A DNA stretch of 64,000 nucleotides from Haliotis cracherodii (taxonomy: Eukaryota), in NCBI RefSeq assembly GCF_022045235.1, contig NW_027266264.1:46624001-46688000 (forward strand), read 5' to 3'. This document shows positions 2,832 through 56,284 of this stretch, piece after piece. The notes under the pieces were generated by a model that was not told where the DNA came from, searched no databases, and saw only the letters and a program-made list of their open reading frames with translations. Both the position numbers and the translations under genes were made by a program. Position 1 is the stretch's first letter, and every line of letters begins with the position of its first letter.

Positions 2832-3196
2832 TTCTCATGGCGTAACTTGGAGTGATGTTGTTAAACCGCGTCTTTTGACCATACAAGAATCTTCCTGTTC
2901 TGATTTTTAGGAACAAACAATGTTGACTGGTAACGTTTCGTTTTCGTCAGTTTTCAAGGAAGGGTATATGGTGCTTTATGATCATTTCCCATCACAGTCA
3001 ACAACTGTTATGGCCTGATGAAATGGAAGGTTTGAAATGATTATTAATAAATAAAGGTTACAGGCCTACTGTCTCTCTGTCAAAAACACTGTATTGATCA
3101 GGATGTCCATATTGTGATCCAGATGGAGGCTGAGTTTTTTTTATTGAAATAAAATTAAGAACCCCCCCCCCTCCCCCAGAAATGACACAATCAAAT

Positions 3197-3342
3197 GACA
3201 CAAGTAATCGTAATGGGGAGACTTAATGGTGCGTTAAATAAGTTGTCTCTACACTCACAGACATCACAACAAATCAACACCATGCTCTGTCACATTGTCA
3301 GCACATGTAACAGCAGTAACAACATCCAATCTGTGTCAGTAG
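3197..3342. promoter_or_regulatory. Paralog-conserved upstream element CNE2 (GTAATCGT..GGGGAGAC..TTGTCTCTACAC..CATCACAAC..TCTGTGTCAG)
   Basis: Copies at ~10939-11081, 38537-38680, 44770-44902, 50592-50707, 51037-51183 and 63783-63910, all in the same orientation. Confidence 0.55.
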
Positions 3343-3789
3343 CAGTGGATGTGCGGAATATTATTCTGGGATAGTAAAGGTATACAATCTTAGAGGATAG
3401 TAGTTTTAATGCTGAACAAAAATGACTGACTAAGCTGGCAAAATAGAAATGAATTCCCTGACTGAATGCCATCATATTTTTCTTTAAACAAGAATACGTG
3501 TTCTTTTCTTTAATTAAGAAGACATGTACATGGTTATGCTACATATGAATACACTTGATATGTTACTAAATACTGAAAGTTTATTAGAACACAGAAAGCT
3601 AGCACAATTTGTAAAATTAAAAGTAGTATGTAGTATATACTGTATGTATAAAATGTAGTGTTACACACGCCTTTGTGTCACTACTTTACATCTGTCCATA
3701 AGTATGTTGTCATTAGAGTGTGGTTACAATGCTAGAGTGGTCAGAAGCAGGGTGGGGCGAATTTGATGACTACATGAGTGACCGAGTCA

Positions 3790-6771: not shown

Positions 6772-7848
6772 CTAAGCATGGTATGATCTCGTGGACCTTG
6801 TGCCCCAACTCTGACTGATGTCGTTTGAAGAATCAGTCATTGACTGTTGTATGTTTGGATACAGGTAGTTGCAGGAAGGGTCAGGTATGCTTAAACTGGG
6901 TGAGGGAACTTGTGGCGCGTATGTTCCGGCCAGTGGAGAGCTTCCCGGGGGAGAGCTGGAGAGAGGGGAACCGGTCAGAGAACTGATGATACTTCTGGTG
7001 TTGTAGTAGCCGGCTGTAGGAGGAGAGTAGCCTGTAGGAGATCCCATGGTCCAGATACAGGGGTCCGGTTTGCCTATTGTGCTGTAGGGGTGTGTCTGGG
7101 TCAGTCCCGGGGGTAAGGAGCCGTGACTCAGGGGGTTGAAGCTTGTGTAAGGAGATGGACCCCCATACAATCCCAATAACTGTCCGTAAGGACTGGCAGG
7201 ATGGAATGAAGGATCTTCTCGACGTTGCTTTTGTGCGGACTTGAAACGCTTAGAACGACGAAGGAAACTGCCGTTACCAAACATGTCCCCACAAGATGGA
7301 TGCAGAGCCCACAGGTTACCCTTGCCTGGTTTCCCCGGGGGTCGGGGCACCTTGACGAAACAGTCATTGAGGGAGAGGTTGTGTCTGATGGAGTTTTGCC
7401 ATCTCCGTTGGTTGTCTTCGTAGTATGGGAATCTCTTGACGATGTAGTTGTAGATGTCTTTGAGAGTCATCATGCCTGTTGTAGAACTCTCGACGGCCAT
7501 GGTGATGAGAGCCACATAGGAATAGGGAGGCTTCTTGTTGGAAAATCGTCTGTCTTGTTGTGAGAGGGTGGATGTTCCCGAGAAACCGTCCCCTTCTCCG
7601 TTCGAGGATACCGATGAGGTAGGAGACGGAAGAATGTTGTCATAATTTGGAGATCCTTGTTGCGTGTGACCTGATCCATGTGTGATCAGGGATCTGACGT
7701 CTTCTCCCTCAGTAGCTCCAGATGTCTGAGACACGACTGGGACGGAGTGTTGTGAAGATATGGAGTGATCAGATGGAAGAGGTGTCATCTGCTGTCCCAT
7801 GAAGGGAGATGTACCTGGGACATACTGGAACATGAATGGGTTATACAT
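6772..7848 (-). CDS. foxAB: Forkhead transcription factor, FoxAB-like (copy A), intronless, 358 aa
   Basis: Full forkhead domain (~7240-7536) [24 protein letters not shown]...[58 protein letters not shown]. The GMMTL, KGNxWALHP and [16 protein letters not shown] residues fit FoxAB better than FoxA or FoxB as I recall those families. Minus-strand AATAAA at ~6488-6493. Confidence 0.85.
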
Positions 7849-7931
7849 GATTCCTGGCTCAATGTGCAGCAGGTGAGAAATGTATTACCTCAGTAGGCAG
7901 AGGAATGTTTATCCCCCTCGTCACGGCGAGG

Positions 7932-16080: not shown

Positions 16081-16206
16081 ATGGCTGAACAGACAGGGTC
16101 ATCCTCTACCTCATCCACTCCATCAGGACCCAAGGAAGAGACGCTTCTGGAAAACTATTTCCTCCTACTCAGCCAATTTGCCTTTGATAAAGCAAAGGAA
16201 CTCAGT
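16081..16206 (+). CDS. KICS2: KICS2 coding exon 1 (MAEQ...DKAKELS)
   Basis: Acceptor ttttacag at 16077 implies an upstream non-coding exon; donor gtatgt at 16207. Confidence 0.85.
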
Positions 16207-19200
16207 GTATGTGCTCGTCCACTGATTTTTATATCATACTATCTTATTTAAGTTTTTGTTGGTTGTTTAAGTCGCGCTCAGCAATAATCCAGCTGTATGA
16301 TGGTGGTCTGTAAATAATTGAGTCTGGACCAGACAATTCAGTGATTGAAATCATGAGCATCGATCAATGCAATGGGATACAATGACATGTACCAAGTCAG
16401 CGAGCCGGACCACCCAATCCCATTGGTTGCCTCTTACGACAAGCATACCCGCCGTTTACGGCAAGTTTTGGTAGCTGAGGATGTATTCTACCCTGGATCT
16501 TCACGGTATTAGGATCTATTACTGTACATGTATCACCTTCTTCAACAATCTCACTCTAGTAACTGTCAAATTCAAGTTAAGGAACAATAACACACAGGGG
16601 CATATGCTCAAAGGGCTATTATATTCCCGGTCAATTTATCAATGTGAATTCAACAATCATTCTCAGCTTCCTGGAGAGTATACAAGCTGCCTGTTACTTT
16701 TAGGCGCTAGAAGGTTAACAACCACATTGCAATCTCATCCCACCCATTCACTGCTGGGTGGACAGAGGCACATTGCACAAAGTCACTTTGCCCATGGAGA
16801 CAACACATGTAAGTGTGGGGCAGGACCAAAGCACTAGAAAATCTCAGGAGCCAAACTGCTGAAATGTGGTCACCCATCGCAGCGAATGTTGGTTACCTTC
16901 ACCTTATTTGGGACCTGTGCGCTGTGCAGTTATAGTAATAGAGGGAATCTGAATCCTATTATATATGAGACCACCTCCCTGGCCTAGTGGTAAAGTGTCT
17001 GCCCTGAGGGCAGAAGGTCAGGGATTCGATCCCTGGTCATGTTATACCAAAAGATGTTAACAGATGGTACTTGTTGTTAACTAATCTCGCGATCTGCATT
17101 AAAGTGCTAAAACAAGGACTGGTATGCTGTGTCTGAGTGGGGTATTTGTTTTAAACTGTGGCATGGTATCTCAAAGGGATGGCACTATAAAATCGGTGTT
17201 AGTCCGGCATACATGCAGCCACATACATGCAGCCACTCACGCACATGTAAGGGCAATAATCTTGAATGCAGCTTTAAACATGCATTTCTTCTCACCTATT
17301 TCTTATGTAGTCACATGGAAATAGGTAAATTTGAAACATGTACGGACTGTAGACTTGTATTTGTTGCCATCTGGTATTGAAGTGATATGATTATTATCCC
17401 TCGCCACGAAGTGGAAGGGGGATATAGGAATGGGTGCCGTCCGTCTGTCCGTCCGTCACATTTCGTTTCCGGAGCAGATCTTGAAAACCGTACCATATTT
17501 CTTCACCAAACTTGGCACATAGATAGATCTAGTGGTGAACTGGTGCCTTTTGATAGTTTGGGATTTTAATTTTTTATATTTTTTTGAGTTTCCATGGCAA
17601 CGACTTTGATTTAGACTGAAAATGGCGGTAGTCCTCGTTTCCGGACCAGATCTTGAAAACCGTACCATATTTCTTCACCATACTTGGCACATAGATAGGT
17701 CTAGTGGTGAACTGGTGCCTTTTGATAGTTTGGGATTTTAAAAATAAATATTTTTCGAGTTTCCATGGCTGAAAATGGCCGTAGTCCTAGTTTCCGGACC
17801 AGATCTTGAAAAACGTACCATAATTCTTCACCATACTTGGCACATAGATAGGTCTAGTGGTGAACTGGTGCCTTTTGATAGTTAGGGATTTAATAAAAAA
17901 ATATTTTTCGAGTTTCCATCGCAACGACTTTGATTTAGACTGAAAATGGCGGTAGTCCTCGTTGCCGGAGCAGATCTTGAAAACCGTACTATATTTCTTC
18001 ACCATACTTTGCACTTAGATAGGTCTAGTGGTGAACTGGTGCCTTTGGATAGTTTGGCATTTTTAAAAACGATATTTTTCGAGTTTTCATGGCAACGACT
18101 TTGATTTAGACTGAAAATGGCGGTAGTCCTCGTTTCCGGAGCAGATCTTGAAAACCGTACTATATTTCTTCACCATATTTTGCACATTGATAGGTCTAGT
18201 GGTGAACTGGTGCCTTTGGATAGTTTTGGATTTTTTTTTATAAAGTTATTTTTCGAGTTTCCATGGCAACGACTTTGATTTAGACTGAAAATGGAGGTAG
18301 TCCTCGTTTCCGGAGCAGATCTTGAAAAATGTACTATATTTCTTTACAAAAAGGCCCAGTGAACATAGTTCACAGGAGCTAATGCATTGCACACACCCGA
18401 CATGTCATATTGGTGGGGGATGTGAGTATTTCATGCTTGTTTTTGTGTGTTTCAGGAGAAGGACAAAGATGTCCACAAGCTGTCCACAGCTGCATCATGG
18501 GGCACCATCATCCAGTGCCTGTCCCAGCTTGCCGCTGCTGAGAAGATGTACATGTCACTCACCTTCCTCGGGCAGAAGAGATTTAATCCTATTGGACGAG
18601 CAAGAGAGGTATGTTGTACCTAATCATGCTAGCAATTGATCTTCTCTGATTAATCAGGGAGAAACATAACGACATGTGGCCATATCATATGGGGGCACAT
18701 TATCCTGTAGGCATCCCGTCAAAATAGTTGATAGCAAAAAACATTCATGTTCTTTTGAGTAGTATATCTACTGGGTTATTGCACCATACACACGATATAA
18801 GTTTTACCTCACTGGATGCAACAAAGTGCTTTAGTTTCCCTTCCTCATACAAACAGACTACTGGAACAAAGAGACAGTTGAAACAGACTACAGCCACATG
18901 CCTTGGCATCCACGAGTTATCCACCTCCTGCCAGCTCAGCCATACAAGATTGTTGACAGCTCCTTTCTGTGTTTGACTGGCAACAGCGACATCTTGTACA
19001 CATGTCTAATACTGCTTTGGATCCATCACCATCGCTAGGTGCTCTGCCTTACTCAAACAGTCTTCCTGGGACCCGCAATTGATGCACCAGCCTTTGTCTG
19101 ATCCGGCTCTTTTCAACAGCCAGATCCTGACAGTTACAAGGAGGCCCAGAGTTGAGACGCTAACCAGCAGCAGTTCTGTCTCCATATTAACATGGAGCGT

Positions 19201-22200
19201 CTGCTGTCTTCCCAGCTCTCTCAACAGCGAACATCATTTGCTGGACTGGTCTACAAGACCCCCCCCCTCCCCATCGTGGACGCTTTCCGGTGGGGACCGT
19301 CGACAAATGTGACCTCCTTGAGATGCCCGACATCTGGCAACTCTCTCTGCCAGTTGTCCCTGTTCAGCCATCTACAGGTAGGTGGGAGACTTCAACAGTA
19401 CTGGGGAGGAATTGGTGGCTGCTGCAGGATCCGTTCGTCATCCGGATCCTCCTCCATGGGTTCAACCTACAGGTTCCACCACTACCATTGGAACCTTAAA
19501 ATCGTCCTCTAGATGTACCAGCTGTACAGGCCAATATCGACTTACTGATTGCCAAGAATATGGTGGAAATTTTGGATGCCAACTCCATCCATCCAGGATT
19601 CTTTCCCCCCCGTCTTCCCATAGCCCCAAAAGGCTTCATCCAAACTATGGATGATTCACAATCTGGCGCTCTTCAATCTTCACTATCTCACGCCTCCATC
19701 ACATTTTCAGATGATCTCCATCTGTTCCCAGCGCCACCGCATCAGTCTGGACCTACAGGATGCCTACCTGCACGTTCCCATTCATGCAACGATTCCTCCA
19801 CTTCATCTTCCAGGCCAGCACTTTCAGTGGAAAGTACACTCATTTGGAATTTTCACGGCTCCGTGGTTATTCATGCGTATCACCAAGCCCATTGTTGGGT
19901 TCCTTCACTGTAGTTGGATTTGTTTCTCTCTTTGAGCAGACTTTTCAAGACCCAATCGTCCATACCCCATGGACTGGGTGCTTCACCCAGAGGGCTTCCC
20001 GTTCTTGTGCGATCGCCTTGGAACTCCAGAAGTTGATCTGTTGTCCAGGGTTAGCAACCACCATACCAGTTGCCAGTGTATGTGTCTCCAGTCCCAGGCA
20101 AAGCTGCTTGGGAGGTAGACGGCCTCGCTGTGTCCTGGGTCAGCCTAAGTGTGTATGCTTTTCTGTCCCCACTTATTCTCCCCCAGGTCATTCACAAAGT
20201 AGCCCTCATCTTACTTGTTCCAGGCCTTCTGCTTCACTTCTTGGTCACCTTGCTGGTTCCATAATTGCAACCTAACTTGCTGCCCTCAGTTCGGTCTTGA
20301 TGACTGCTAGTGACTGTCCTCGGTCCCTGCACTTTGTGCCATGGTCTGAGGATTTTGATTGGAGGATGAGAATAAGAAGTTCAATCCTCCAGCTTGGCAT
20401 TTAGATCTTGTTTCTCGTGACTGCTTGCACCTGCCTCGTTTGAAGATCTCACCTTGAAGACTTGCTTATTCCTGGCACTTGCCATGGAGACCAGGGTTAG
20501 CAAGATTCATGCCCTAGATGTGACCCAGGTCCGGTTCAACAAGCAACCTCACGGCCTGGTTCACCTTGTTCTTTGCTGGTACTTTGTCGCCAAAAATCAA
20601 CTGCCTGGCCAACCTGATCGGCAGTTTCATGTCCCTTCTCTTTTGGAGATCGTTGGTCCAGATGATAACATGAACTCACTCTCTGCCCGGTTCGAGCTCT
20701 CCGACAATATCTTCAGGTGTCTCAGCAGCATCGTTGACAGTGCCTTTGGCTTCATTTCGCTATCATGAAAGCCTATGGTCGTGCTAACTTACCTCCTCCA
20801 ATCAGCATGAGATCCATGCCCTGTCTTCTCCACTGGCCCTCCATCCTGACGACATCATGGAGGGATGCTTCTGGTCCTCTATATCTGTCTTCGCAACCTT
20901 TCTGTGGAAGACGTTGAGGGTACTCATAGATTTGGTCCACTTGTCCTGGCCTAGCACCTGACCAACCCCTGATGCCATACTAGGAGCTGCTACCTTGTTG
21001 TCGTCTGAAGGGTTCCTTGCCTGGTACTTCTGACAGTAAGCCCATCTTCCATGTCAGTCAAATAAAGCACTGTGTAGCATCAGTTAAGGTAAAACATGAG
21101 CACTTCTGATTCAATGCAATGTTGTATACTTACCTGATGCTACACCTATAGGCCCACCTGGACTGGGTCTGCCTCCTCCGCCACTGTCTGTTTGGTGTCA
21201 CTGTCTACTCTGCGCCTGCTGTTGTACAGTGAAGAATATGAGGGAGTAGGGGGCAAGGGGGATTACTTGTGGATGCCGAGGCATGGGTTGTGGTGTCAAC
21301 TGTCTCTTCATTCCAGTACTCTCTGTTTGTATAAGGTAGGGGAGTTAAAGCACTGTGTAGCGTCAGGTAAGTATAACAACCTTGCATTTATTCAGAATTG
21401 CTCATTTTGAAACAATACACATTTCAATACTTATTGAGCATACTGTGAAAATGAATATAATATATTGCTGTCCTTTGAAGATCCGGGTTAGAATTGGTCT
21501 TCAGCAAGCCCATGCTTGTCGTAAGAGGCAACCGGATCAGGTGGTCAGACGTGGATGATGCATGTCATCCCAATTGCGTAGATTGATGTTTGTGATATCA
21601 ATGACTGGATTGTCTGGTCCAGACTTGATTATTTACTGCCTGTCGGCATATAGCTGGAATATCGCTGAGTGAGGCGTTAAACAACAGACAAACAAAGAAA
21701 CTTTATATATGGCTGTTACTTCCTCCCTGATTTCTCCTTTTGCCCACAGGTATACGTGATAAGAAATCTTTGATTTCGACTCAGTGTAGCGTCTTTAGAA
21801 ATATCTAGGGTTATACCCATCTTCCTGAGGCAAGGGAGTTAACTGACTTTAAAAGTCCAGTTTCCATCCTTGCCAAACTAGGCTGGAATTTCAGGGCCTT
21901 GATTCTAGTGCCATGAGTGGCTATTATGAATTATGTCCCCCCTCAGATTCCACCTCTCATATCATTTGTTTCAACCAAAATGGTTGTGACCATTCAATCT
22001 CATCAATAATACAGATCTTTGTTGTAATAAAACTGCTTTTCCCTCGCAAAGTGCATCATATCACTTGAGCACCTTGATTAAAAACATGAAAAAATTGGAA
22101 AATATGTGTTGACGCCCAGCTGAGGGTACACATGCTCTGCAAATCCTGGTTCGATATTTGCCATGTGGATTATGATGCGGGTGTCGATATCTTGTTAGTC

Positions 22201-25200
22201 CAGCAAAAACATCTCCATAATTATCCCCCGCCGCGCGAAAGCGCGAAGCGGGGGATATAGTATTCACGACCGTCCGTACGTCCGTCCGTACGTCCGTACG
22301 TCCGTCTGTACGTCCCACCTGTTTGTTGCCGCGATATCTCAAGAACTAAACACTGGATTGTCTTCATATTTGGAACTATGGTGTATATACAGACTCCGCA
22401 GACACCAGTCGGTTTTGGTGACCTTGACCCCATTTTCAAGGTCACAGCAGGCAAATCTGTTTTTGGAGTTGGAAAACGGTGTTGCCACAATATCTCAAGA
22501 ACTAATCGCTTGATTGTCTTCATATTTGGTACTATGGTGTACAGGCGGGGGATATTTCGTCACTCTGTGACAAATACTTGTTCCAGCCTAGTTTGGCAAG
22601 GATGGAAACTGAACTTTTAAAGTCTGTTAACTCACTTGCCTCTGGAAGAAGGGGACCGCCTCCGTGGTCTTGTGGTAGAGCGTCGGCCCGGAGAGCGGAA
22701 GGTCCAGGGTTCGATCCCGGGCCGCGTCATACAAAAAGACGTTAAAAGATTGTACTTGTTGTTACCCTGTCTGGCGCTCGGCATTAAGGGGCTAAAACAA
22801 GGACTGGTCGGCTCGGAGTCAGTATACTGTGTCTGAGTGGGGTATTCATGTTAAACTGCGGCATGGTATCTCAGTGAGCTAGCACTATAAATCGGCATCA
22901 GTCCGGACTAGTACAAGCAGCCACACACACATACACGTGCATGCACGTCGCTATATAAGTGCAATAATCTTGGACGCGACGTTAAACCCAATTTCACCTC
23001 ACCTCACCTCTGGAAGAAGGGTATACTAACCATATTGAAAGGCTATATTTATATCAGTAGAGACCCATAGAGCTGCTCAGTTAAAGTGATGTCCACAACC
23101 ACCACCACCACCACCACCAAGGGTCTAATTTTAAGATGAAACTGATTTGGTTCTTCCCTCCACAGAACCTGCGCAACAACTACCAGTTCCTGGTTCAGGA
23201 GTTCCAGCGTATTGACAGCTTGTCCCAGACACCAGTGACTCTTCGCTCGGACCTTGACATTCTCCTGGCACATCTGAGTGGTCAGCTGAGTCACTACCTC
23301 ACAGCCAGACAGAGGCTCATGGATCTGTATCCTGGAGACTGTTTAGTGGAGAGATTTAATCTTAGGGATGTAAACCTCAGTTGTATTGTGAATCTATTAG
23401 AACATGTAAAATGATGTCTACCTATTTTGATAATATTTAGTATCAGGTATAACTAGCAGTTTATGTCTACTTTAGGACAAACATGTATCTCCTAGCCCAG
23501 ATTACTCTCTCTGCTATGTTCCCAAAACAGACAACATACTTGTGCCATTTTGTTATGTTCCTAAAGTCATTGCATGGGCACCAATTGTTTTTCATCTTTA
23601 TACCCAAATGTTATACTATATGAGTATCAACATGACCATCTCAGGAGGCTTCCTAGTGGTAATCCTGCTTAATGTGAATGTAGTTAGTTTATGCACTCAT
23701 CAGTGTTATATGATTGTGTTGTCCACTTAACAAAACAAGATATGAGCAGATATCTTCAGTTGCTGTCCACAGGAATGTGAGTTTTGATGACCTGGTTACT
23801 ATGGTTACTGACATAATACAGGCTCACAGTCGGGGCTTCCACCATCCACTCCTCAGCCCTCTCAAGTCATCCTTCAGGTAGGGTTAGAACCATTGTCTGA
23901 ACACTCAAGAACAATAGTACATCATGTTAGAATCACAATGTTGCCACCACATTGATACATCATGATACAAAAGATTTTAATGCTGTCTCCATATGTGATG
24001 CTGTCTCCATATGTGATGCTGTCTCCATGTGTGTGATGCTGTCTCCATATGTGATGCTGTCTCCATATGTGATGCTGTCTCCATGTGTGTGATGCTGTCT
24101 CCATATGTGATGCTGTCTCAATATGTGATGCTGTCTCCATGTGTGTGATGCTGTCTCCATATGTGATGCTGTCTCCATATGTGATGCTGTCTCCATGTGT
24201 GTGATGCTGTCTCCATATGTGATGCTGTCTCCATGTGTGATGTTGTCTCCATGTGTGTGATGCTGTCTCTATATGTGATGCTGTCGCCATGTGTGTGATG
24301 CTGTCACCATGTGTGTGATGCTGTCTCCATATGTGATGTTGTCGCCATGTGTGTGATGCTGTCGCCATGTGTGTGATGTTGTCTCCATATGTGATTCTGT
24401 CACCAAGTGTGTGATGCTGTCTCAATGTGTGATGTTGTCTCCATATGTGATGTTGTCGCCATGTGTGTGATGTTGTCTACATGTGTGTGATGCTGTCTCC
24501 ATGTGTGTGATGCTATCTCAATGTGTGATGTTGTCTACATGTGTGTGATGTTGTCTACATGTGTGTGATGTTGTCTCCATGTGTGATGTTGTCTCCATAT
24601 GTGATTCTGTCACCATGTGTGTGATGCTGTCTCAATATGTGATGTTGTCTCCATATGTGATGTTGTCGCCATGTGTGTAATGCTGTCTCCATGTGTGATG
24701 TTGTCTCCATGTGTGTGATGCTGTCTCTATATGTGATGCTGTGGCCATGTGTGATGCTGTCGCCATGTGTGTGATGTTGTCTACATGTGTGTGATGCTGT
24801 CTCCATGTGTGTGATGCTATCTCCATGTGTGTGATGTTGTCTCCATGTGTGTGATGTTGTCTACATGTGTGATGTTGTCTCCATGTGTGTGATGTTGTCT
24901 CCATGTGTGTGATGTTGTCTCCATGTGTGATGTTGTCTCCATGTGTGATTCTGTCACCATGTGTGTGATGCTGTCTCCATATGTGATGCTTTCTCCATGT
25001 GTGTGATGCTGTCTCCATGTGTGATGTTGTCACCATGTGTGTTATGTTGTCTCCATATGTGATGTTGTATCCATATGTGTGATGTTGTCTCCATGTGTGT
25101 GATGTTGTCTCCATGTGTGATGTTGTCTCCATGTGTGTGATGTTGTCTCCATGTGTGTGATGTTGTCTCCATATGTGATTCTGTCACCAAGTGTGTGATG

Positions 25201-37058: not shown

Positions 37059-37937
37059 TTATTGCTCAACTAACACATCTTCGCTACTTGCCAATGCTTG
37101 TAGTTGCATCTCTGTGGCCAAGTTTCGAATCTTTTCTGCAATTTTAGCATTGTTTTTCTCTCTCCACATGATTACTTTATAGCTGAAATACAACAAAGTT
37201 GCAACGTTTACAAAAAAGCAAGCAAAAGCCAAACAGCTGTCCAACACCTCCATTGCCTTTCCAAGGTCGTTGAGTGAGAGCCAGGTGTCTTTGTGGCTGG
37301 GTACTAAAGAACTGTTCATTATCAAACTGGGAATGATCACCAGTGGGTTTTTCCCACTGGACACCGAGTCCACAACAGTGGAAAAAATCTTCTGTAGGTC
37401 CTTGATACTGCTGATGAGTATCCATGCGGGCAGAATAGTCAGAAACACATCCTCCACAGCTCGCCATACCTTGCTACCACAACACAGCAGTAGGAAGGAA
37501 CTCCCTGTACGTAGTGGTTCCTCGGGCTCCAGAATCAAGTCAGTGAAGGCACACAAGGTCGGTTTAGATAATGTTACAAGGCTGGTGTCTTGAGAAACTA
37601 TGTATATGTCAGAATGCTTGCCTCTTCCCAGAAACACGTCTCTTGTGTCCCTGATGGATCTGTTGTTGTAGAAATCCCGCACCAGTTTGATAGAGAAGGT
37701 GACAAGTCCTGCTACCAGCGCCAGGCTAGCTCCTACCACGCTGATGTGAGAGGACACATTAAAGTCTTTGAAGGTCCATCCTGACCCAAACAGAACAATA
37801 CCACTACCAGTTATGCCGAATATGGAGAAAATGATTCGGAGGATGTTGAGGGTCCGGTGTCTTTTCTCCAGTTTGTCGGCAATCTTGTTTAACCTGTTCT
37901 TGGATTCTTCCATCTCAGAGGCCCCTGAAATAAACAT
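37059..37937 (-). CDS. Apolipoprotein-L-like membrane protein (292-aa ORF; likely start M at 37913 after a splice acceptor at 37925)
   Basis: LNKIADKLEKRHR, then two Gly-rich hydrophobic helices, a C-terminal hydrophobic stretch and the amphipathic tail AKIAEKIRNLATEMQ. This is the ApoL-family layout, recognised by eye. Acceptor tttatttcag lies upstream of MEESKN. Confidence 0.6.
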   Translation of the reverse strand: MFISGASEMEESKNRLNKIADKLEKRHRTLNILRIIFSIFGITGSGIVLFGSGWTFKDFNVSSHISVVGASLALVAGLVTFSIKLVRDFYNNRSIRDTRDVFLGRGKHSDIYIVSQDTSLVTLSKPTLCAFTDLILEPEEPLRTGSSFLLLCCGSKVWRAVEDVFLTILPAWILISSIKDLQKIFSTVVDSVSSGKNPLVIIPSLIMNSSLVPSHKDTWLSLNDLGKAMEVLDSCLAFACFFVNVATLLYFSYKVIMWREKNNAKIAEKIRNLATEMQLQALASSEDVLVEQ

Positions 37938-38177
37938 GTTGCTATTGCAGTATTGGAAATAACTTTGTCAGGCTGACAGTATGTCTATTCTGAAGTAAAG
38001 GGCACTTGAAAACGGTAAGCTTGTCTGGAACTTTAGGAATGATGGAATTGAGGAATAAGGGGATCGTAATACTAATTCTTACGGTTTGGAATTCTTAACA
38101 TTTAGTGCTGAAATCGGGTGGCAGTTAATCCCCATTAACTACAACGTCCCAAGCAGGATTCGCGATTCTCTGAAAAC

Positions 38178-38208
<31 letters not shown>

Positions 38209-38232
38209 AACACACATGTGTAATAATGAAAG

Positions 38233-38392
38233 TGACCCCTGAAGATCTGGGGTAGAATAGGTCTTCAGCAACCCACGCTTGCTGTAAGAGGCGACTAAGG
38301 GCATCGGTCGGTCAGGCTCACTGATTTGGTTGGTGCATGTCATTGATACCAATTGCGTGGAACGATGCTCATGATGTCAATCACTGGATTGT
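38233..38392 (+). mobile_element. SINE-like repeat (family 2), 3' truncated
   Basis: Head and body only. Confidence 0.8.
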
Positions 38393-38414
38393 TGGCTTTG
38401 CTCACCAAATACAA

Positions 38415-39207
38415 TGTATTGATCAGGATGGCCATATTGTGATCGAGACTTTTTATTGAGGCAGATGGAGCCTGAGTTTTTTATTAACATAAAATTAAGC
38501 TGTTCCCTCAGCACCCCCCCCCCCCCCCCACCCCCCCAAGTAATCGTAATGGGGAGACTTAATGGTGCGTTAAATGAGTTGTCTCTAAACTCACAGACAT
38601 CACAACAAATCAACACCATGCTCTGTCACATTGTCTGCACATGTAACAGCAGTAACAACATCCAATCTGTGTCAGTAGCAGTGGATGTGCGGAATATTAT
38701 TCTGGGATAGTAAAGGTATACAATCTTAGAGGATAGTATTTTTAATGACTGAATGCCATTATGTTTTTCTTTAAACTGAACAAGAAACAAGAAGACGTGT
38801 CCATGAATATTCTACATATGAATATACATGATATGTTACTAAATACTGAAAGTTTGTTAGAAAATGAAAACTAGCACAATTTGTAAAAGAAATCCTCAAG
38901 ATGTTTAATTAAACGTATGAATGTGTTGTAGTTAAAAGTATAGGTGTCGCACGTCTGTCTCCTGCCTTGTGTCACATGTTATATCTTCACATGTACCTTC
39001 AATATGTCGTAGCTAAGACCTTGAAGCGAAATAAACGTGTTTTCGTTTGTTGTTACTGAAATCGTTACATAAAGTGTGTAACCGTGTGTTGAATGGACTT
39101 TTTTTGCTGCATGTACGACGTGCTTAGCATATGTAGTATTACACACACCTTGTGCTAATACATTACATCTGTCCATAAGTATGTTGTCATTACGGTGACA
39201 AAACAAG
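38415..39207. repeat. Duplicate of the FoxAB upstream block ~3090-3720 (includes CNE2)
   Basis: Collinear near-identity from tgtattgatcaggatg through CNE2 to catctgtccataagtatgttgtcatta; bounded on both sides by family-2 SINEs. Confidence 0.85.
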
Positions 39208-39478
39208 TGACCCGTGAAGATCCGGGGTAGAATAGGTCTTCAGCAACCCATACTTGTCGTAAAAGGCGACAATGCTTGTCGTAAGTGGCGACTAACGGCA
39301 TCGGGTGGTCAGGCTCGGTGGCTTGGTTGATGCATGTCATCGTATCCCAATTTCGTATATCGATGCTCATGATGGCAATCACTGGATTGTCTGTTCAAGG
39401 ATCGATTATTTACAGACCGCCGTCATATAGCTGGAATATTGCTGAGTGCGGCGTTAAACAACAAACAAACAAACAGAC
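39208..39478 (+). mobile_element. SINE-like repeat (family 2), full length
   Basis: Head with duplicated hairpin, (AAAC)n tail. Confidence 0.85.
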
Positions 39479-39494
39479 AATAATGACCGTTTCT

Positions 39495-39768
39495 CGTCAT
39501 ACCAAAAGACGTTAAGAGATTGTACTTGTTGTTACCCTGTCTGGCGCTCGGCATTAAGGGGCTAAAACAAGGACTGGTCGGCTCGGAGTCAGTATATTGT
39601 GTCTGAGTGGGGTATTCCTGTTAAACTGTGGCAGGGTATCTCAGTGAGCTCGCACTATAAATCGACATCAGTCCGGACTAGTACATGCACGTCGCTATAT
39701 ACATGATATAAGCGCAATAATCTTGGACGCGACGTTAAACCCCATTTCACCTCACCTCACCTCACCTC
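39495..39768 (+). mobile_element. 5'-truncated SINE (family 1)
   Basis: Core and (CACCT)n tail without the tRNA head. Confidence 0.85.
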
Positions 39769-40284
39769 AATATGCAGTCCACAGATTTGATAATGAAATG
39801 TGTGTATGAGAGAGTGAAATGTAAACTGTATACTCTGTTTTTGATTTCTACGAATCAGATACTTACACGAATGTCCTGAAGATTATCGCCCAATTGGAGA
39901 CGAAGTTGTTTACCATGCAAATACTTGTTATAAACGTTAGGTGTCCCTGCATACCTCTTGCCAACTGGGGTAAATAATGGATTCGTGGTTGTTTGTTGTG
40001 AAAGTGTGGCATTCCACTCCTTTACAGACTTGCGTTTCTTTTGACTGTCACTTTCCATTCAGTGTTATACACGCTTTACAAAACATGGCCTGGAAGGCTT
40101 TGGGAAGACATTTTATGTTTGTTAGATATGGGATACGTCATTAACCAGGGACTCGTCTACAGTAGAATTACAAAGGACGTGTCCCTTTGCAATATCTTGT
40201 CTAACATTCGTACGTTATGGATATTTACAGAACACGTGGTTATAAACACCATCTATATTTCAATAGATTGTTGTTTCATGTATC

Positions 40285-40637
40285 GGACCGCCTCCGTGGT
40301 CTAGTGGTAGAGCGTCCGCCCGGAGAGCGGAAGGTCCGGGGTTCGATCCCCGGCCGCGTCATAACAAAAGACGTTAAAAGATGGTACTTGTTGTTACCCT
40401 GTCTGGCGCTCGGCATTAAGGGGCTAAAACAAGGATTGGTCTGCTTAGAGTCAGTATACTGTGTCTGAGTGGGGTATTCCTGTTAAACTGTGGTATGGTA
40501 TCTCAGTGAGCTAGCACTATAAATCGGCATCAGTCTGGACTAGTACAAGAAGCCACACAAACACACACACGTACTTGCACGTCGCTATATAAGTGCAATA
40601 ATCTGGGCCGCGACGTTAAACCCCATTTCACCTCACC
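40285..40637 (+). mobile_element. tRNA-derived SINE (family 1), full length with TSD
   Basis: TSD tgtttcatgtatc(g) at 40272-40285 and 40638-40651. Confidence 0.9.
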
Positions 40638-41805
40638 TGTTTCATGTATCGAGTCTAGTGTTATTTGAGCCTGGTGTGGTATCAAGTCACGCGACCTGAC
40701 GGGTTGTCTTGACATGGTAGAGCACTTGACGCGATGATTAAATCGTATTCTGTAAATGTGGTATCAGTGCCATACTATCAGCATTGTCTTTCAACATGTA
40801 CTCATATTAGAACCACACACGGTGGTACAAGGGAATATGTTACATGTTATTGATGTAGTACATAAAACACATGGTATGACGGTAGACATGTAGAACTATT
40901 TCGTGCTTACAGTTTTCAGCATCAAATGTATGAATTAGATATTTATTTCAGTACCTTTCATTTCTTTGAACATTAAGTTATAAATATGTACATACAGATG
41001 TCTGAATTACTTACTAGTTCAATGCCAACTCCGTCATTTGTTACGTGAAGTTGTCTGCACTTATAGACAGCACATCGCTTCATTAGGTACATTTGTTCTG
41101 GCTTAATCGATCATCTCAGTAAAAACAACCTCAATTGCATTCACATTTAAAGCGAAGATATAAAGGTACATTGTGTAAATTGTCAGGTGTTGATTGAGTG
41201 AAGTGCACGAAAGCTGACTCGTGAGAGTGTGGGTGGGTTGACTGTGTGTGTGTGGGTGGGAGATCTCCTATGTTATTTTCACAGTAATTATCATTTCCCC
41301 GAGTTTCCGATTCTCGGGCTTAATATTATAGATATAATTACTTGTAGTATTAATGCATCTTATGTAAGGGCCTGCAGGTTCACTACATACCTGACCGTCT
41401 GCTGCATCGCTGGTTGTAATCTGCAGACGAGGTGACATCTACAGGGATTTCCGCCTTACATTAACAGCCTGCATTAATATTTTACATTAACCCGACATTG
41501 TTCTGAAAATAGTCTTTCTCAGAAACCGGTCTATCAGCCTTCAGGGCCACCATGGGTTGTGAAGGGGATCAGATAGACACGGCCCGGATCAGACGACGTT
41601 GTTTTCAGGGTTTAATCGTTCTATGCCTTTGGGACAATTGCTATTTCTGTATTCTACACCTTATATGCATGTAAGAGTGCCATAAATAGGTCCGGGTGAC
41701 TTTCCTGTAACTTGATGAAAAAGGTAATATGTATTAATCACGTCCGGAAGCATGCCTATTCACTAGAGTCACGTGATCCATATATACAACCAGTCCGCAA
41801 TTCAC

Positions 41806-41989
41806 NNNNNNNNNNNNNNNNNNNNNNNNNNNNNNNNNNNNNNNNNNNNNNNNNNNNNNNNNNNNNNNNNNNNNNNNNNNNNNNNNNNNNNNNNNNNNNN
41901 NNNNNNNNNNNNNNNNNNNNNNNNNNNNNNNNNNNNNNNNNNNNNNNNNNNNNNNNNNNNNNNNNNNNNNNNNNNNNNNNNNNNNNNNN
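41806..41989. other. Assembly gap (N run)
   Basis: Run of Ns. Confidence 1.
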
Positions 41990-42428
41990 GCAATTCCAGA
42001 CTGTCTATCCGGAATTACTCCCTCCCTTTGTTAAAATACTCATAAATCTTCTCCCAGCCTAGTCCGTCATGTATTCCAAGTATATACCTATGTACAAGCA
42101 TCAGGAATCCACGTGTACTACACGTAGGTGACTGGGGTTAATACCGAAAATATTCAACGGACACATTCTGGGGACATTCAAACACCGTCCTTCCTACACC
42201 CATATTTTTACATGCACATACATACATGTACTACTGTATATCATAAACACACGACATGGCGGTTTGCAGCATATTAACTTTAATAATGCACATAATTATC
42301 ACTAACATTCGAAACACACGGACAGTGTATGCAAAAACTAAAAAGTGCAGTGTATGTAATATTCAAAACACTAATTCCTCAAATCAATGTTAATAGCACT
42401 ATAGGTACAAGAGTCGTTGTCTTGTTAT

Positions 42429-43502
42429 TCAGGGATGTTGTTGCAGGTTTCTGAAAGAGGGTACAGCACTGAATGACTGTCGTGGATGTAGCGACACACA
42501 GTGACGGAGGTTTTCATCAATAGTGGATCTTGGGCAGCTCCCTGGACGCATGTAGGCCCTACCCAGGGGCGAGCTTCCCGGGGGAGAGCTGGAGAGAGGG
42601 GAGCCGGTCAGGGAGCTGTTCATGCTGCTGGTGTTGTAGTAGCCAGCTGTAGGAGAGTAGACTGTTGGAGATCCCATAGTCCAGACACAGGGGTCCGGTT
42701 TGCTTGTGTTGCTGTAGGGGTGTGTCTGGGTCAGTCCCTGGGGTACATGGACAAGGCTCACGGGGTTGAAACCTTGGTATGGCGATTGACGATCATAGAA
42801 ACCTGAATGGCCATAGAAATTGAGACGTTGGACGGTGGCTTCATCTTGTCGCTGTTTGTGTCCTGACTTGAAACGTTTAGAACGACGGAGGAAACTGCCG
42901 TTACCAAACATGTCCCCACAAGAAGGATGCAGAGCCCACAGGTTACCCTTGCCTGGTTTCCCCGGGGGTCGGGGCACCTTGACGAAACAGTCATTGAGGG
43001 AGAGGTTGTGTCTGATGGAGTTTTGCCATCTCCGTTGGTTGTCTTGGTAGTAAGGGAATCTCTTGACGATGTAGTTGTAGATGTCGTTGAGAGTCATCAT
43101 GCCTGTTGTGGAACTCTCGACGGCCATGGTGATGAGGGCCACATAGGAATAGGGAGGCTTCTTGTTGGAAAACTGCCTGCTTTGTTGGGAGAGAGTTGAC
43201 GTTCCTGGGACAGTGTCTAGACTTGGGTCCTCTTCCTCGTCGTTTTCGGAGCTCATTGAGGAAGATGGTGAAGGCAAGGTGTTGTGATCGCTGTCTGGAA
43301 CTCGATGCTGTTGAAGAGGCTCCCTCATGTCTCTTGGAGAGAGTTCAGGCCTGACGTCAGCTTCACGTAAAGGTACATATGACTCGACCTGGAACTTGGA
43401 CGAAGGAGGAAGTTGTGTTGCATATGGAGGTGTCATCGTCACTGCCATAGCTGGGTCGGCAACGGCATTTCCATACTGAAATGTTGCTGGATTGAACAAC
43501 AT
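42429..43502 (-). CDS. foxAB: Forkhead transcription factor, FoxAB-like (copy B), intronless, 357 aa
   Basis: Same forkhead domain. N-terminus nearly identical to copy C; the post-domain segment (SGHKQRQD) resembles copy D. Confidence 0.85.
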
Positions 43503-43578
43503 TTTGTTATCTCAGAAAACCCAGTATGTTATAACTGAGTAACAGTGAGACTGTATGCCTTCACATTTGTCGGCGGAG

Positions 43579-43776
43579 TATATATCCCCGTACTAATCCC
43601 CCAAGAAAACATATAATTACAAACGTGGATTTGTCCAAAAATAAATTGGATAGCTAATTGTTTATGTACAATTGATTGGACCAAAACCACATCGACCTGC
43701 TTGAGGTGTGTCTAGATAACCCAGTGGGCACTGTTACGAATTGCTATTGGCTACTGGCTCACAATAACTCCGCCTA
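43579..43776 (-). promoter_or_regulatory. FoxAB copy B core promoter
   Basis: TATATA 43579-43585, TAATCCCCC 43594-43602, CCAAT 43746-43750, GGCGGAG ~43768-43774. Confidence 0.65.
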
Positions 43777-45921
43777 CTTGTCTGCAGCGCCCCAAATGTC
43801 GACGCCTCTTTGTTCGTCGGGTTACAACACTTCCCGAGTGTATAGTTTTGGCGATGTTGTCCTTGCATGCCCATGCTTTGGTGAATAAATGAGCCTTTGT
43901 GAACTGAAAAATGTTTTCCATGTGACGTGGAGTTCTATGTATACCTCACAACAGGTTATTTTTATCTTTACTGCCATTCTTTACTTAAACGTTATAATTA
44001 GTAGTCCAACATACATGTGGCTAACACAGCTGATTAGAAATTGAACGCCTAGATAATATCTTTCGTTTTATTCTGTTCATAGCTAAATCAACACCCGCGG
44101 GATTCGCTTGACGTGCTTTAGGGTCCCTTGTCCACATGGGGTCATGTTCAAGTACTGATACCATAATCAATATTGACGTCAATTTAGTTACGGAACTAAT
44201 GGAGGGTGCACATTTGGCTGTTAAAATTATATCACTAAACTGTGTTTCTCAAGCAAAATCGAGAAATGTTTTATGTAGGGCGTCAAAGCAGAATCTGCCC
44301 AGGGAACTCAATTGATGGAAAAGATGTGCTTGCCTCTGCAGATGTAATGACATGTTAATAACCTGAATATGCATTTTCTCGTGTTGTCTCTTAGGTCATT
44401 TTAGCAGGACAACTCACCGTCTATCGTCAATAATTTAATATACACGTGTATGTATTATTGTATGTAAATGATTACAGTGTGCTGTGTGACACAGTAATAA
44501 ACTACATTCTTATGTTATTTCCATTTGCAAATATTTCTGCTTATCTAAAATAGATGATTGAACAATGAGCAACTGTGCTAGTGCAAACTGACACCATGGA
44601 GTTGGTCATTGCTTGTTCATGGTAACTAATTTTGATTTCACGTGTAGGTTATATTAAGATAGCGGGTAAACAAAATGTGTCGAATGACACCAATTAGGGA
44701 GATTTCATAGAATGTTTTGAAGCAGGGAACCACGCGCAACATAAAGTGCGACTACACAGGGGTAATTGTGACACGAGTAATCGTAGAGGGGAGACGTATG
44801 ACGCGGGTAATGGGTTGTCTTTACACTTATTTACATCACAACATTTCAACACAACACTTTGTCTGAATCGATCATCCCAGAAACAACATCTATGTCAGCA
44901 GCTTCACTTGGAGTGACACTTAATATCAAAATGGGGATATTGATGACACTTTCACTGACTGCTATACATTGTATGTGTGAACGAACAAAAAAAACTTGTC
45001 TGGTCTTTTCCTTAGATGCTCTATTACATTTATTATGATGAGTCGATATTTCTCAACTTCGAATTAACTATCTACAGTCTTCATCTGTCCCATTAGTTCG
45101 TCCTGCTCTGATGACAATGGCACAGAACACATCTTTACAAGATACATGTATGTTTGAACAGTCTCTCACATTCTTCGAGTTAAAACATGATGCAGTATAT
45201 TAAAGACTGGTCATTACCTAACATCACCTTGTTACCTTAATACCAGATCTGTGTGACTCTCTTTCATGTGACCACCCAAGAAAGGGGGTTCAAATCAGAA
45301 CAGGATTAGGATTAAAACTGACGACGACATATAGAATTCCAATTGTTTTATCAAATACAGATTATGACTGTTGTTTGTGGTAAGTACAATATTGATCCAA
45401 TTACAGTTTGCTTTGTCTTTCTAAATAAGATTTAGTTGTAACAATGCGCTGTATTCCCTTCACAGAGTGGAATACCGACACAGGCCTATCTACCTATACG
45501 GTCGTTAAGGTCTAGCATCGCGGTAAGTAAGATGGCGACAAGGACGTTCCTTCTTGGATGACGAAATTTAAATCGCTTTAACGAAATTCGAATTAAATTA
45601 CAGAAACAATCTTCCGACTTCAAAATGACCAACTAGAAGACTGATGGCCACTCACAGGTTGATGCTGGGTGTCTTTCAAGAAGAAAGCTGTACATATGTT
45701 CTTCTTGGGGTGAAACTCAGACCCTAGTGACAGCCTTGTGACCAGTAGCCGTAAACCTTTTGTTATGTTCTTATTTCCAGTGAAAACTTGAAACGGACGA
45801 AAGGCGATACACTTATTCACTCCACTAAAGCTTTAAGAAAACAACCATACACGTGGTCTGGGGATTGAAGAATTATGCGTTGGTGATAAAAAAAAAATAT
45901 ATATAGTATCACATAACCAGG

Positions 45922-45989
45922 TGGGGCGGTCGGGTTCGATTCCCGACATGGGTACAATATGCGAAGCCCATTTCCGGTGCCCCCCCCCC

Positions 45990-46020
<31 letters not shown>

Positions 46021-46080: not shown

Positions 46081-47339
46081 ATACTTACATTTATATGAGA
46101 GGTATAAACTATATTTTAGATTCTACAATTAGTTAATTAAATTAAGTAACGTTTAGTTTCTGGATATGGTAGCTTAACTATAACGATCATATGTAGCGGA
46201 CCTGTCGTCATTAACAAACGGTCATATAGTTAAACTAGTCTTTTTCATACATTAGTTCCGGATTATTGCTGGTTCCACAATTGTCCAAACAAGAACAAGT
46301 TAATTAGGAAAAGTACAGAAACTGCAACTCAACTGTGTAAATGTAGCATGAGGTACCTTTTGTAATTGTCACCTCTTGACTACCTAGTACACAACGGCAT
46401 GACCCCACGTGCAGACTGTAAGTTAATGACGCACACATCGGGAGACATGATATTGAGAAGTATGTCAGTGCTTCACCTGATAGACATGAAAGAAGTATTT
46501 TGAGTAACACCTTCTATAAATAGACTCTGCAAGTTTTGTACCAACTGTGTTGAAGTTGAAATACACTTTCTTGTAACTTGTGATCTTTACTCAGACCTAC
46601 GTTACAAATTGTTTAATTCTATTCCTAGTTTAGACCCCTCCTTCCTATAACTTAATCCAGCGGACCAGTTTAATTATAATAAATAATGATTCACTATGTA
46701 ATACGTTTTACTAACAAAAATGTATTACTAACAAAAATGCATAGGCGTCTTTGTCACATACTCTCTTGACATCACGTCACTACTCAATTAATCCCGTTTT
46801 AATACTTTGATGTATATTTTATATGTTAACTATTGATGTAACACATATATTTGTGTCAATATATTGGTCAATGCTGTTCGGTAGATGTATTTATAATTTA
46901 TGCCATATTTGCTTTGTTACTGTTTTTATGCCGCCAGTGACACGTTAATAAAACGTTTTTCTTCTTCTTTCTTCTATCAACTTGTTGCTTCACACCACAA
47001 CCAACCCCATTCCAGCTATGTCGCTTTCACTGTCTTTACGGCGAATGCTAGACTGTTTGTGAAAAAGAAAACGTACAACTTTATGGATAACATCTTCTGG
47101 TTTACTGCTTTTAGCAACGTTTCGAGATTGATTCTTACGCTGTTATCAAGCAGGCGTCGCTATATGCAGTAAACCAGAAGTTGTTATACAGAAAATCGGA
47201 CGTTTTCTATTAGAATGAGTTGCATTTGCTTGCAAACAGTTAGAAGATCCAAATGTTTCATTACCGCCCAAAATCTATTAAAATGTCTGAAATTAACTTA
47301 GCCATTGGTTGCTGTGAGGTTGAAAGTACCAATGCATAC

Positions 47340-55035: not shown

Positions 55036-55690
55036 ATTACTTACTTACTTACTTACTTACTTTGGAGATTTAACGTGCGCTTTCCGACTGATGCGTATTT
55101 CGCACACGGGCCCGGCCAGGCCATTTAATGTGTTTCCGAAAGGGGCGAGGGTGGTCTGTGCAACCCAAGAGGGGGCTTTAGGGGTTGCTTATATAGAATT
55201 TGGGAATTTTGAGATTTGGAATAGATGCTGATGGGGTTGGGGAGGAGAACTAAGGGAGCTGGGTATGGTGGATGATTGTTTGTTTATGTGATTTTGATTT
55301 GGTAGGTTATTATGGTTTTAGATGCGTTTTATTAGTTCCGTTTTGATTAAGAATACGCCTAAGGCCTTGAAGTTTTCTAGTTTATTTTGTGGGTTTAGTA
55401 TTGCTTCTAGAGTGAGAGCCTTGTTTAGATTGAGGGTGGTTTGTAATGCGGTTCGATGTGTTAGGTAGTGTGTGCAGTGGATGAGTGCGTGTTCTGGGGT
55501 TTCTGGTTGTTTGCAGTGTGGGCAGTTACCTGTAGTGTGTTTTTTAAATTTTTTTAGGTGGTTATTTAGGTTGGTGTGTCCTGTTTGGAGTTTAGTGATT
55601 ACTCTGTCGATTTTTTTTGATGGATGGAGAATTTTTGGTTTGGTTAGTGGTTTGCTGAGCACTCTTTTGATTTTGCTATTTGAGTTTAGA
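55036..55690 (-). mobile_element. 5'-truncated LINE (I/Nimb-like) 3' end
   Basis: KLQTGHTNLN.HL...CPHCKQPETPEHALIHC zinc knuckle, 3' UTR and (TAAG)n tail at 55036-55062. Confidence 0.75.
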
Positions 55691-56284
55691 TATACGTCTT
55701 CATACGCATTTGTACATAAAGGACACCCTCTTGCTGTATCAAAGAATTGAAATCTTAACGTGAGTTTGTTTCGTTTGATATTTACACATCAAATTGAGAA
55801 GACTTGTTTCCACTTGATTACCTTCCCGAAATGAACAAAGTCACCACGTGATGATCAATATCAGACACAGCACGTTAAAGTCTATTATTTATCTATTGCC
55901 AAGTCCTTGTTTCTTGTCGGCTCAAGCATCAAAGTGAAGGTGTCTTGCTCCCCAGCATATACAGACACCCTCCCGTGATACTCCGGTAAAGCAACAAGCA
56001 GCTTAGTGTAATCCGACCACACTACATGAAAACCAAAACCAAAATAGTGATAATCTGTTGTTTACTTTAAGTGACGAGGATCTTAAGTCACCTTTGGTGT
56101 AGGACGAACTCAATAGTTTATATGTCTTTAAATAATATACATTTTCGAAATAGTTTAAGTGCAATACTTTTTAAGATGTTTACAAGACGGCAAACAATGT
56201 CACAACATATTTGTTGTTATAAGTTACTACATGTGTGTTGATGCGTTCTATATGTGTATATACGGCAAGAAGTGACTGGATTCA

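What the first reader, a model, noticed from the sequence alone, without database searches (positions are those of the whole stretch)
37059..39207. ApoL-like gene in a 'Fox slot': possible capture of a FoxAB enhancer
Seen: 38415-39207 is a high-identity duplicate of the FoxAB upstream block 3090-3720, including CNE2. In the direction where a Fox gene would be expected lies a co-oriented ApoL-like ORF, about 500 bp away. A TAATCCCC motif also occurs at ~38125, near a candidate minus-strand donor at 38082. The block is bounded by two family-2 SINEs. Inference: either a Fox copy was lost or replaced, or the block was copied next to the ApoL-like gene. Either could place a putative membrane/immune effector under FoxAB-type regulation.
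Basis: partly seen in the sequence, partly recalled or inferred. Interest (0 to 1): 0.7.

Follow-up and report, generated by a model that had tools for sequence, protein, structure and literature searches.

The report
FoxAB DNA copied into ApoL intron
In an abalone genome, an 800-base piece of non-coding DNA from a tandem array of FoxAB developmental genes sits inside the first intron of a spliced apolipoprotein-L-like gene; it was likely copied in at an existing mobile element and is likely a passenger, not a control switch captured by that gene.

Summary
The duplication is real: 38406-39208 matches 3081-3730 (core 4 of 206 differences, flanks 36 of 295), so it is no assembly artefact. An RNA-type contig joins a non-coding exon at 41391-41494 to the coding exon at 37924 across a 3,466-bp GT-AG intron. 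The block, both SINEs and TAATCCCC are therefore intronic, and that transcript does not use the 38082 donor. No Fox coding or promoter remnant lies at the 'slot'. The gap between the two halves of a 12-copy FoxAB array holds a multi-exon KICS2 gene plus the ApoL-like gene. One 8-bp direct repeat flanks SINE+block+SINE, which favours insertion into a resident SINE over loss of a Fox gene. The protein is a divergent ApoL. Enhancer activity and co-expression are untested. Capture is not excluded (about 12%): the core is unusually similar and a second, older copy lies in the same intron. Verdict: local duplication in an unstable array, modest interest. The abalone FoxAB array itself is the better lead.

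The parts
37059..37924 (-). ApoL-like coding exon (exon 2): acceptor AG 37926-37925, ATG 37913, 284 aa, stop 37061-37059; transcript contigs extend to about 37006
   Evidence: 78% to a named Haliotis asinina protein; ApoL by profile transitivity
41391..41494 (-). ApoL-like exon 1, non-coding (no in-frame ATG); 5' end may extend further
   Evidence: contig X7 piece and loose end; translation; DNA run X8 continues across both ends
37925..41390 (-). ApoL-like intron 1, 3,466 bp, GT..AG; holds everything listed below
38406..39208 (+). Duplicated FoxAB-unit non-coding block, sister to 3081-3730 and to the same block one unit left of the window
38537..38742 (+). CNE2 core, 98% identical to 3201-3406; regulatory function untested
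38817..39054 (+). Dispersed repeat inside the block, 78-86% to copies on many contigs
38234..38392 (+). Family-2 SINE, 3'-truncated at the block junction
39209..39475 (+). Family-2 SINE, full length
38222..38229 (+). Left copy of 8-bp direct repeat, candidate target-site duplication of the whole SINE+block+SINE unit
39479..39486 (+). Right copy of the 8-bp direct repeat
41049..41144 (+). Older, decayed CNE2 copy, closest to the CNE2 at 44814-44907
   Evidence: 17.6 bits against decoy maximum 6.6; z 7.8 against shuffles
38126..38133 (+). TAATCCCC motif, intronic, no Fox-promoter homology around it
3081..3730 (+). Sister block upstream of the FoxAB copy that starts at window position 46
16081..36047 (+). 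KICS2/C12orf66 gene (coding pieces at 16081, 18426, 23085, 33612, 35477), convergent with the ApoL-like gene
   Evidence: Pfam PF09404 in 4 of 100 ORFs; first coding exon; last exon covered by contigs of 4 of 4 runs
6772..7884 (-). FoxAB copy, last of the left half of the array
42429..43511 (-). FoxAB copy, first of the right half; its stop lies about 0.9 kb from the mapped start of ApoL-like exon 1

Best explanation
The block is a local duplicate of FoxAB-array non-coding DNA that lies inside intron 1 of a spliced ApoL-like gene; it was likely inserted at a resident SINE and is likely a passenger that, if active at all, would act on FoxAB promoters rather than set the ApoL-like gene's expression. 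SHOWN: the duplicate, its intronic position in one transcript contig, the absence of a detectable Fox remnant, the 8-bp repeat around SINE+block+SINE. INFERRED: a single SINE with that target-site duplication was there first; repair by template switching or SINE-SINE recombination copied about 800 bp from a FoxAB unit 35-43 kb away into it, leaving a truncated SINE on the left and a full one on the right; this happened before organisms A and B split (flanks 12% diverged against about 4.6% between them); the core has since been kept at 98% mainly by gene conversion within the array.
For: Intron: X7 contig 1023 nt = 918 nt on 37006-37923 + 105 nt on 41390-41494 with matching loose end; contigs of 3 of 4 runs (3 studies) stop at 37923 with extra letters, the fourth (X13) ends inside the exon. 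Acceptor just before the ATG is also seen by eye in 3 of 3 ApoL-family paralogs on C10, so the gene has family-type structure. No Fox coding hit between 7884 and 42429 and no promoter hit. 8-bp direct repeat at 38222/39479; 3 of 9 other full-length family-2 SINEs show clear 9-10 bp target-site duplications; random windows give 15 of 3000. The block's right end shares AAGTG with both the sister unit and the left SINE head. Conversion: the core differs at 2 of 93 columns conserved in older paralogs and 2 of 113 unconserved columns, so identity is uniform rather than motif-focused; the 10943 copy looks mosaic. Organism B non-coding pieces differ at 66 of 1428 letters. The array is unstable: 99% recent unit duplications and 2 broken copies of 12.
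Against: Exon 1 was mapped in 1 of 3 runs with extra letters; X16's 121 extra letters did not lay on 40660-43700 at 90% and X14 laid nothing there, so another first exon, even one using the 38082 donor, is not excluded. All RNA labels are the tool's guesses and tissues are unknown. The 8-bp repeat was found after the fact and stops 4 nt short of the SINE head. Left and right SINEs are 86.2% alike, tied for best of 13, with only 2 shared derived sites: inconclusive. Uniform 98% identity also fits selection on a longer young enhancer. A second CNE2 copy in the same intron is not explained by this insertion. An intronic element 2.7 kb from exon 1 could well act on the ApoL-like promoter.
Confidence: 0.62

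Rival explanations
1. A FoxAB unit once stood here; its coding part and promoter were deleted or replaced by the ApoL-like coding exon, and the CNE2 copies are what is left.
For: 12 of 14 CNE2 profile hits lie within 3.2 kb 5' of a Fox copy in this orientation; the other 2 are in this intron, co-oriented with the ApoL-like gene (7 of the 14 were training sequences). The 41049 remnant is of the right-array type. Block-to-exon distance (0.6 kb) resembles proximal CNE2 spacing at 635 and -7281.
Against: No Fox coding, promoter or KICS2-promoter-like remnant in 37926-38240 or 40650-42430 (an N stretch there could not be read). One direct repeat flanks the SINE+block+SINE unit. The array half can simply begin with a partial unit. 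An ApoL-like ortholog and several FoxAB copies share one long contig in H. asinina.
Confidence: 0.17
2. However it arrived, the CNE2 copy now works as an intronic enhancer of the ApoL-like gene and gives it a FoxAB-type (embryonic, oral-ectoderm) expression domain.
For: Core is six times less diverged than its flanks and less than organism A/B non-coding divergence; two CNE2 copies lie in the intron; the ApoL-like first exon is the nearest mapped one (2.7 kb; nearest Fox start 4.8 kb).
Against: Conservation is uniform, as conversion would give. CNE2 has never been shown to be an enhancer. No promoter-proximal arrangement. Intronic elements in genes beside developmental regulators can act on the regulator (PMC3514665, passages read).
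Confidence: 0.12
3. The CNE2 copy is under selection as a long-range FoxAB enhancer housed in a bystander intron (genomic-regulatory-block logic).
For: Predictions 1 and 3 of PMC3514665 fit in part: developmental regulator plus unrelated genes; short conserved block in the intron.
Against: The copy is young and redundant with 12 others; conversion suffices; no functional data. Overlaps with the best explanation on origin.
Confidence: 0.08
4. The block is an assembly artefact.
For: The array holds near-identical units (99%) that are hard to assemble.
Against: The block differs from its sisters by 40 substitutions, several indels and a retained repeat; a false duplication would be near-identical. 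An RNA-type contig splices across it.
Confidence: 0.01

Closest known systems
Genomic regulatory block with bystander gene (PMC3514665; abstract and passages read)
   Same: Unrelated genes (ApoL-like, KICS2) lie inside a developmental transcription-factor locus, and a short conserved non-coding block lies in an intron.
   Different: The block here is a paralogous duplicate, not an anciently conserved orthologous element; no enhancer activity shown; linkage shown only within Haliotis.
SINE-associated local segmental duplication / templated insertion (Alu-Alu-type or template-switch repair; recalled, no call)
   Same: Short duplicate from tens of kb away, both ends at SINE sequence, microhomology at one junction, one target-site-like repeat around the unit.
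   Different: Mollusc SINEs about 86% alike; no SINE beside the sister block today; mechanism inferred from one locus.
Apolipoprotein L family (Pfam PF05461)
   Same: All 10 distant profile hits are ApoL above cut-off; N-terminal hydrophobic pair and C-terminal hydrophobic segment; one coding exon behind a non-coding exon.
   Different: The protein itself scores below the cut-off (18.8 vs 25.9 bits); about 20% identical to canonical ApoLs; no activity known.
Spiralian Fox expansions, e.g. tandem foxQ2 and two foxAB paralogs in Owenia (PMC9539403; passages read)
   Same: Tandem copies of a clade-I Fox gene.
   Different: Here the expanded class is FoxAB, 10 intact forkhead domains plus 2 broken copies, split by two unrelated genes.

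Membership tests
Apolipoprotein L | Pfam PF05461 score above the curated cut-off | tested here: not met
   18.8 bits, E 0.0012, cut-off 25.9; ortholog and closest paralog have no ApoL hit at E 0.05
Apolipoprotein L | Homology to bona fide ApoL proteins by profile search | tested here: met
   Profile of 3 sequences gave 12 hits; 1 is near-identical to the query, 1 matches the paralog in the profile, and 10 of the other 10 are ApoL above cut-off; Atlas lead 0.84 ApoL
Apolipoprotein L | Hydrophobic helical hairpin near the N-terminus (feature recalled) | tested here: met
   Hydropathy peaks at 22-45 and 53-78, also 152-170 and 220-248
Apolipoprotein L | ApoL-type fold | tested here: inconclusive
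   Model all-helical but mean pLDDT 38.7; no fold search run
Apolipoprotein L | Membrane permeabilising or immune activity | not testable with these tools
   No data
FoxAB class | Forkhead domain groups with invertebrate FoxAB-type proteins, apart from the genome's other Fox genes | tested here: met
   Array copies fall in a 96/93 clade with spiralian and echinoderm proteins including two Owenia paralogs, apart from 7 other Fox domains of G000 (5 of 22 loci were not parsed). No row was labelled FoxAB by its source: the class name rests on the two Owenia paralogs (PMC9539403) and recalled motifs
Enhancer capture | Element lies within reach of the new gene's promoter | tested here: met
   Intronic, 2.7 kb from exon 1
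Enhancer capture | New gene occupies the old gene's promoter position | tested here: not met
   No Fox promoter remnant; first exon elsewhere
Enhancer capture | Selection on the element at the new site | tested here: inconclusive
   Core 4 of 206 vs flanks 36 of 295, but uniform across conserved and unconserved columns
Enhancer capture | Shared expression and enhancer activity | not testable with these tools
   Only contigs of unknown tissue
Genomic regulatory block | Developmental gene plus unrelated bystander genes | tested here: met
Genomic regulatory block | Cross-species conservation of the intronic element and of gene order | not tested
   No relative's genome served; both read-laying runs went to gene structure; only same-contig linkage in H. 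asinina
Insertion at a resident SINE | One target-site duplication around the composite | tested here: met
   8 bp; 15 of 3000 by chance; post hoc
Insertion at a resident SINE | Left and right SINE heads descend from one copy | tested here: inconclusive
   86.2%, tied best of 13; 2 shared derived sites

The most novel reading that the evidence does not exclude
A SINE-guided insertion dropped a FoxAB enhancer into the intron of a divergent apolipoprotein-L gene trapped inside an abalone-specific 12-copy FoxAB array, and the gene now uses it, giving a membrane-active protein an embryonic or larval oral-ectoderm domain; gene conversion keeps the borrowed enhancer in step with the FoxAB copies.
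Probability: 0.12. Interest if true: 0.65.

Novelty: new member of a known kind. Interest (0 to 1): 0.3.

Why it matters
As it stands it is a datable example of how an expanding transcription-factor array scatters its non-coding DNA into neighbouring genes, with a testable pre-insertion state (one SINE with an 8-bp target-site duplication). If capture proved true it would be a clean case of a regulatory element moving from a developmental regulator to an effector gene. The context may matter more: a FoxAB array of 10 intact and 2 broken copies, with multiple copies also in other named Haliotis species, against one copy in Capitella (PMC4407770) and two in Owenia (PMC9539403). Searches found no paper describing it, in a library that lacks most subscription journals.

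Tried and rejected
1. Fox promoter remnant at 38125: profile and pairwise searches found none. 2. Homology of ApoL-like exon 1 and its upstream DNA (41200-41805, 41990-42430) to Fox units or the KICS2-promoter-like element: none apart from a GT-repeat match; the N stretch 41806-41989 could not be examined. 3. CNE2 as a structured RNA: Rfam gave only a tRNA-like SINE head and a weak chance hit in 35000-46000. 4. CNE2 as a genome-wide repeat: 7 matches, all in this array (the tool warns this does not prove rarity). 5. Co-expression: no listed holder is on record as RNA. Fox ORFs were covered only by 159-168 nt pieces while the ApoL-like exon was covered over 678-918 nt in three runs and in pieces in the fourth, but the runs were found with the ApoL-like stretch and contig depth cannot rank genes, so this is not used as evidence. 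6. Structure prediction was too poor for a fold search. 7. SINE common-origin test inconclusive. 8. CNE2 tree: only the clade 38537+3201+(-4717) is supported, 98/94; direction of copying between these sisters cannot be read from it. 9. Earlier findings: none by place or words. 10. Papers: FoxAB+C12orf66 0 hits; ApoL+abalone, +mollusc, +invertebrate gave nothing relevant by listing; supplements of PMC3514665 could not be read and might list Fox-KICS2 linkage. 11. I first misread the right-hand Fox ORFs as plus strand; corrected.

Full report
Setting. The window is G000:C1:46624001-46688000 of a 1.18-Gb genome. Named relatives place it in the abalone genus Haliotis: a Fox protein is 96% identical to an H. 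rufescens record and the ApoL-like protein 78% to an H. asinina record. I added 100 kb on each side. tblastn finds 12 Fox loci from -27.5 kb to +73.3 kb, all on the minus strand; 10 have an intact forkhead domain. In a tree of 41 domains they group with spiralian and echinoderm proteins, including two Owenia paralogs, apart from 7 other Fox domains of this genome (5 of 22 loci were not parsed). This fits FoxAB; no source labels a row so, and the class name rests on PMC9539403 (passages: two Owenia foxAB paralogs) and recalled motifs.

The duplicate. 38406-38888 aligns to 3081-3616 and 39131-39192 to 3653-3715; a third copy lies one unit left of the window. The core 38537-38742 differs at 4 of 206 columns, the flanks at 36 of 295, p=1.5e-5. 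38817-39054 is a dispersed repeat of which the 3-kb copy keeps only part, so the two blocks are sisters and neither is a copy of today's other. Forty substitutions and several indels rule out a false duplication. A CNE2 profile gives 14 hits at E below 0.001 in 264 kb, all plus strand: 12 within 3.2 kb 5' of a Fox copy and 2 in the ApoL-like gene (7 were training sequences; decoy maximum 6.6 bits).

Gene structure overturns the layout. Contigs of runs guessed to be RNA cover the ApoL-like exon; in 3 of 4 runs (X7, X14, X16; three studies, three organisms) they stop at 37923 with 105, 43 and 121 further letters, and X13 ends inside the exon. X7's 105 letters lie at 41390-41494, its loose end is the start of the coding exon, and DNA run X8 runs through both ends of that piece. 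The intron is 41390-37925, GT..AG, 3,466 bp, and exon 1 has no in-frame ATG. So the block, both SINEs, TAATCCCC and the 38082 site are intronic in this transcript. Against over-reading: X14 laid nothing on 40660-43700 and X16's extra letters did not lay there at 90%, so other first exons remain possible.

No Fox remnant. There is no Fox coding hit between 7884 and 42429. Fox starts carry a TATA-like run about 11 nt from TAATCC; 38126 does not. A promoter profile recovers 2 held-out Fox promoters and nothing at 37926-38240. TAATCCCC occurs 12 times in 264 kb, 5 at Fox starts, so one here is mildly unusual but unsupported. The interval is occupied: Pfam finds KICS2/C12orf66 in 4 of 100 ORFs, its first coding exon is at 16081, and its last exon is covered in 4 of 4 runs. 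The order is six FoxAB copies, KICS2, ApoL-like, six FoxAB copies.

How the block arrived (inferred). Family-2 SINEs make target-site duplications: 3 of 9 other full-length copies show clear 9-10 bp ones. One 8-bp repeat flanks the whole unit of truncated SINE, block and full SINE (38222-38229, 39479-39486); random windows give 15 of 3000. The right junction shares AAGTG with the sister unit and the left SINE head. The simplest reading is one resident SINE into which the block was copied by template switching or SINE-SINE recombination. The repeat was noticed after the fact, and the two SINE heads are no more alike than independent copies can be (86.2%, tied best of 13). Flank divergence of 12% exceeds the roughly 4.6% (66 of 1428 letters) between this genome and organism B, so the event likely predates that split.

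Is the core maintained? It is, but by what is open. Differences are 2 of 93 in columns conserved among four older paralogs and 2 of 113 in unconserved columns. Uniform identity and the mosaic look of the 10943 copy favour gene conversion; selection on a longer young element is not excluded. An older CNE2 remnant at 41049-41144, closest to the 44814 copy, is the main loose end: it fits a partial unit at the edge of the right half, or a lost Fox unit.

The protein. Direct Pfam ApoL score is below cut-off. A profile of the protein, its ortholog and its closest paralog returns 12 hits, and all 10 distant ones are ApoL above cut-off. Hydrophobic segments lie at 22-45, 53-78, 152-170 and 220-248. 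The structure model is uninformative, pLDDT 38.7. It is a divergent ApoL; 'immune effector' is an analogy from recalled vertebrate ApoL biology.

Comparison and verdict. It resembles a bystander gene in a regulatory block (PMC3514665, abstract and passages) more than a promoter swap, but the element is a young paralog and its activity is untested. FoxAB is embryonic and oral-ectodermal in Capitella (PMC4407770, passages) and embryonic in Owenia (PMC9539403, passages); nothing here shows such expression for the ApoL-like gene. Best reading: passenger insertion, 0.62; lost Fox 0.17; capture 0.12; bystander-housed FoxAB enhancer under selection 0.08; artefact 0.01. Novelty: new member of a known kind. 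Interest 0.3. The FoxAB array, for which searches found no description, deserves its own look.

Noticed in passing
window -27500 to +73600 (G000:C1:46596500-46697600): Tandem FoxAB array: 12 copies, all minus strand, 10 with intact forkhead domain, 2 broken. The leftmost copy keeps the ancestral-type domain; the other 9 intact copies form a derived abalone clade, 100/99. Several copies also in named H. asinina, H. rubra and H. rufescens records. No paper found.
   Followed up: partly
window 16081-36047: Multi-exon KICS2/C12orf66 gene splits the array, head-to-head with the FoxAB copy at 7884.
   Followed up: partly
window 3760-4090, 4550-4909, 11412-11769, 45251-45598, 51658-52048 and flanks: Many Fox units carry a copy of an element homologous to 12400-12755, 3.4 kb upstream of the first KICS2 coding exon, with an AAGATGGCG motif (YY1-like, recalled). 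Likely duplicated KICS2 promoter DNA carried along with the units; not checked with RNA.
   Followed up: partly
window 41049-41144: Second, older CNE2 remnant in the ApoL-like intron, closest to the 44814 copy; not explained by the insertion model.
   Followed up: partly
window 10910-11100: CNE2 copy looks mosaic: centre 97% to 3201/38537, edges like the -11667 copy; suggests conversion or unequal crossover.
   Followed up: partly
window 1-8018: Two very recent 7.9-kb unit duplications, 98-99% identical; could be copy-number variable or partly an assembly effect.
   Followed up: no
L042-L044 (G000:C10:26.32-26.39 Mb): ApoL-family cluster: two canonical members and one divergent member that is the closest paralog (30%) of the window gene; a plausible source of the gene.
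   Followed up: partly
window 42101-42148 and 43313-43637: Organism B DNA contigs skip 46 bp and 323 bp; the second spans a Fox start and TATA region, possibly another broken copy.
   Followed up: no
window 19624-19932; 23980-28560; 55318-55788; 57481-58461: Reverse-transcriptase fragment in a KICS2 intron; 4.6-kb tandem repeat; ORFs that look like retrotransposon and Tc1-type transposase fragments by eye.
   Followed up: no
window 11724-11848 and 47063-47211: Short palindromes; the first lies right after the KICS2-promoter-like copy.
   Followed up: no
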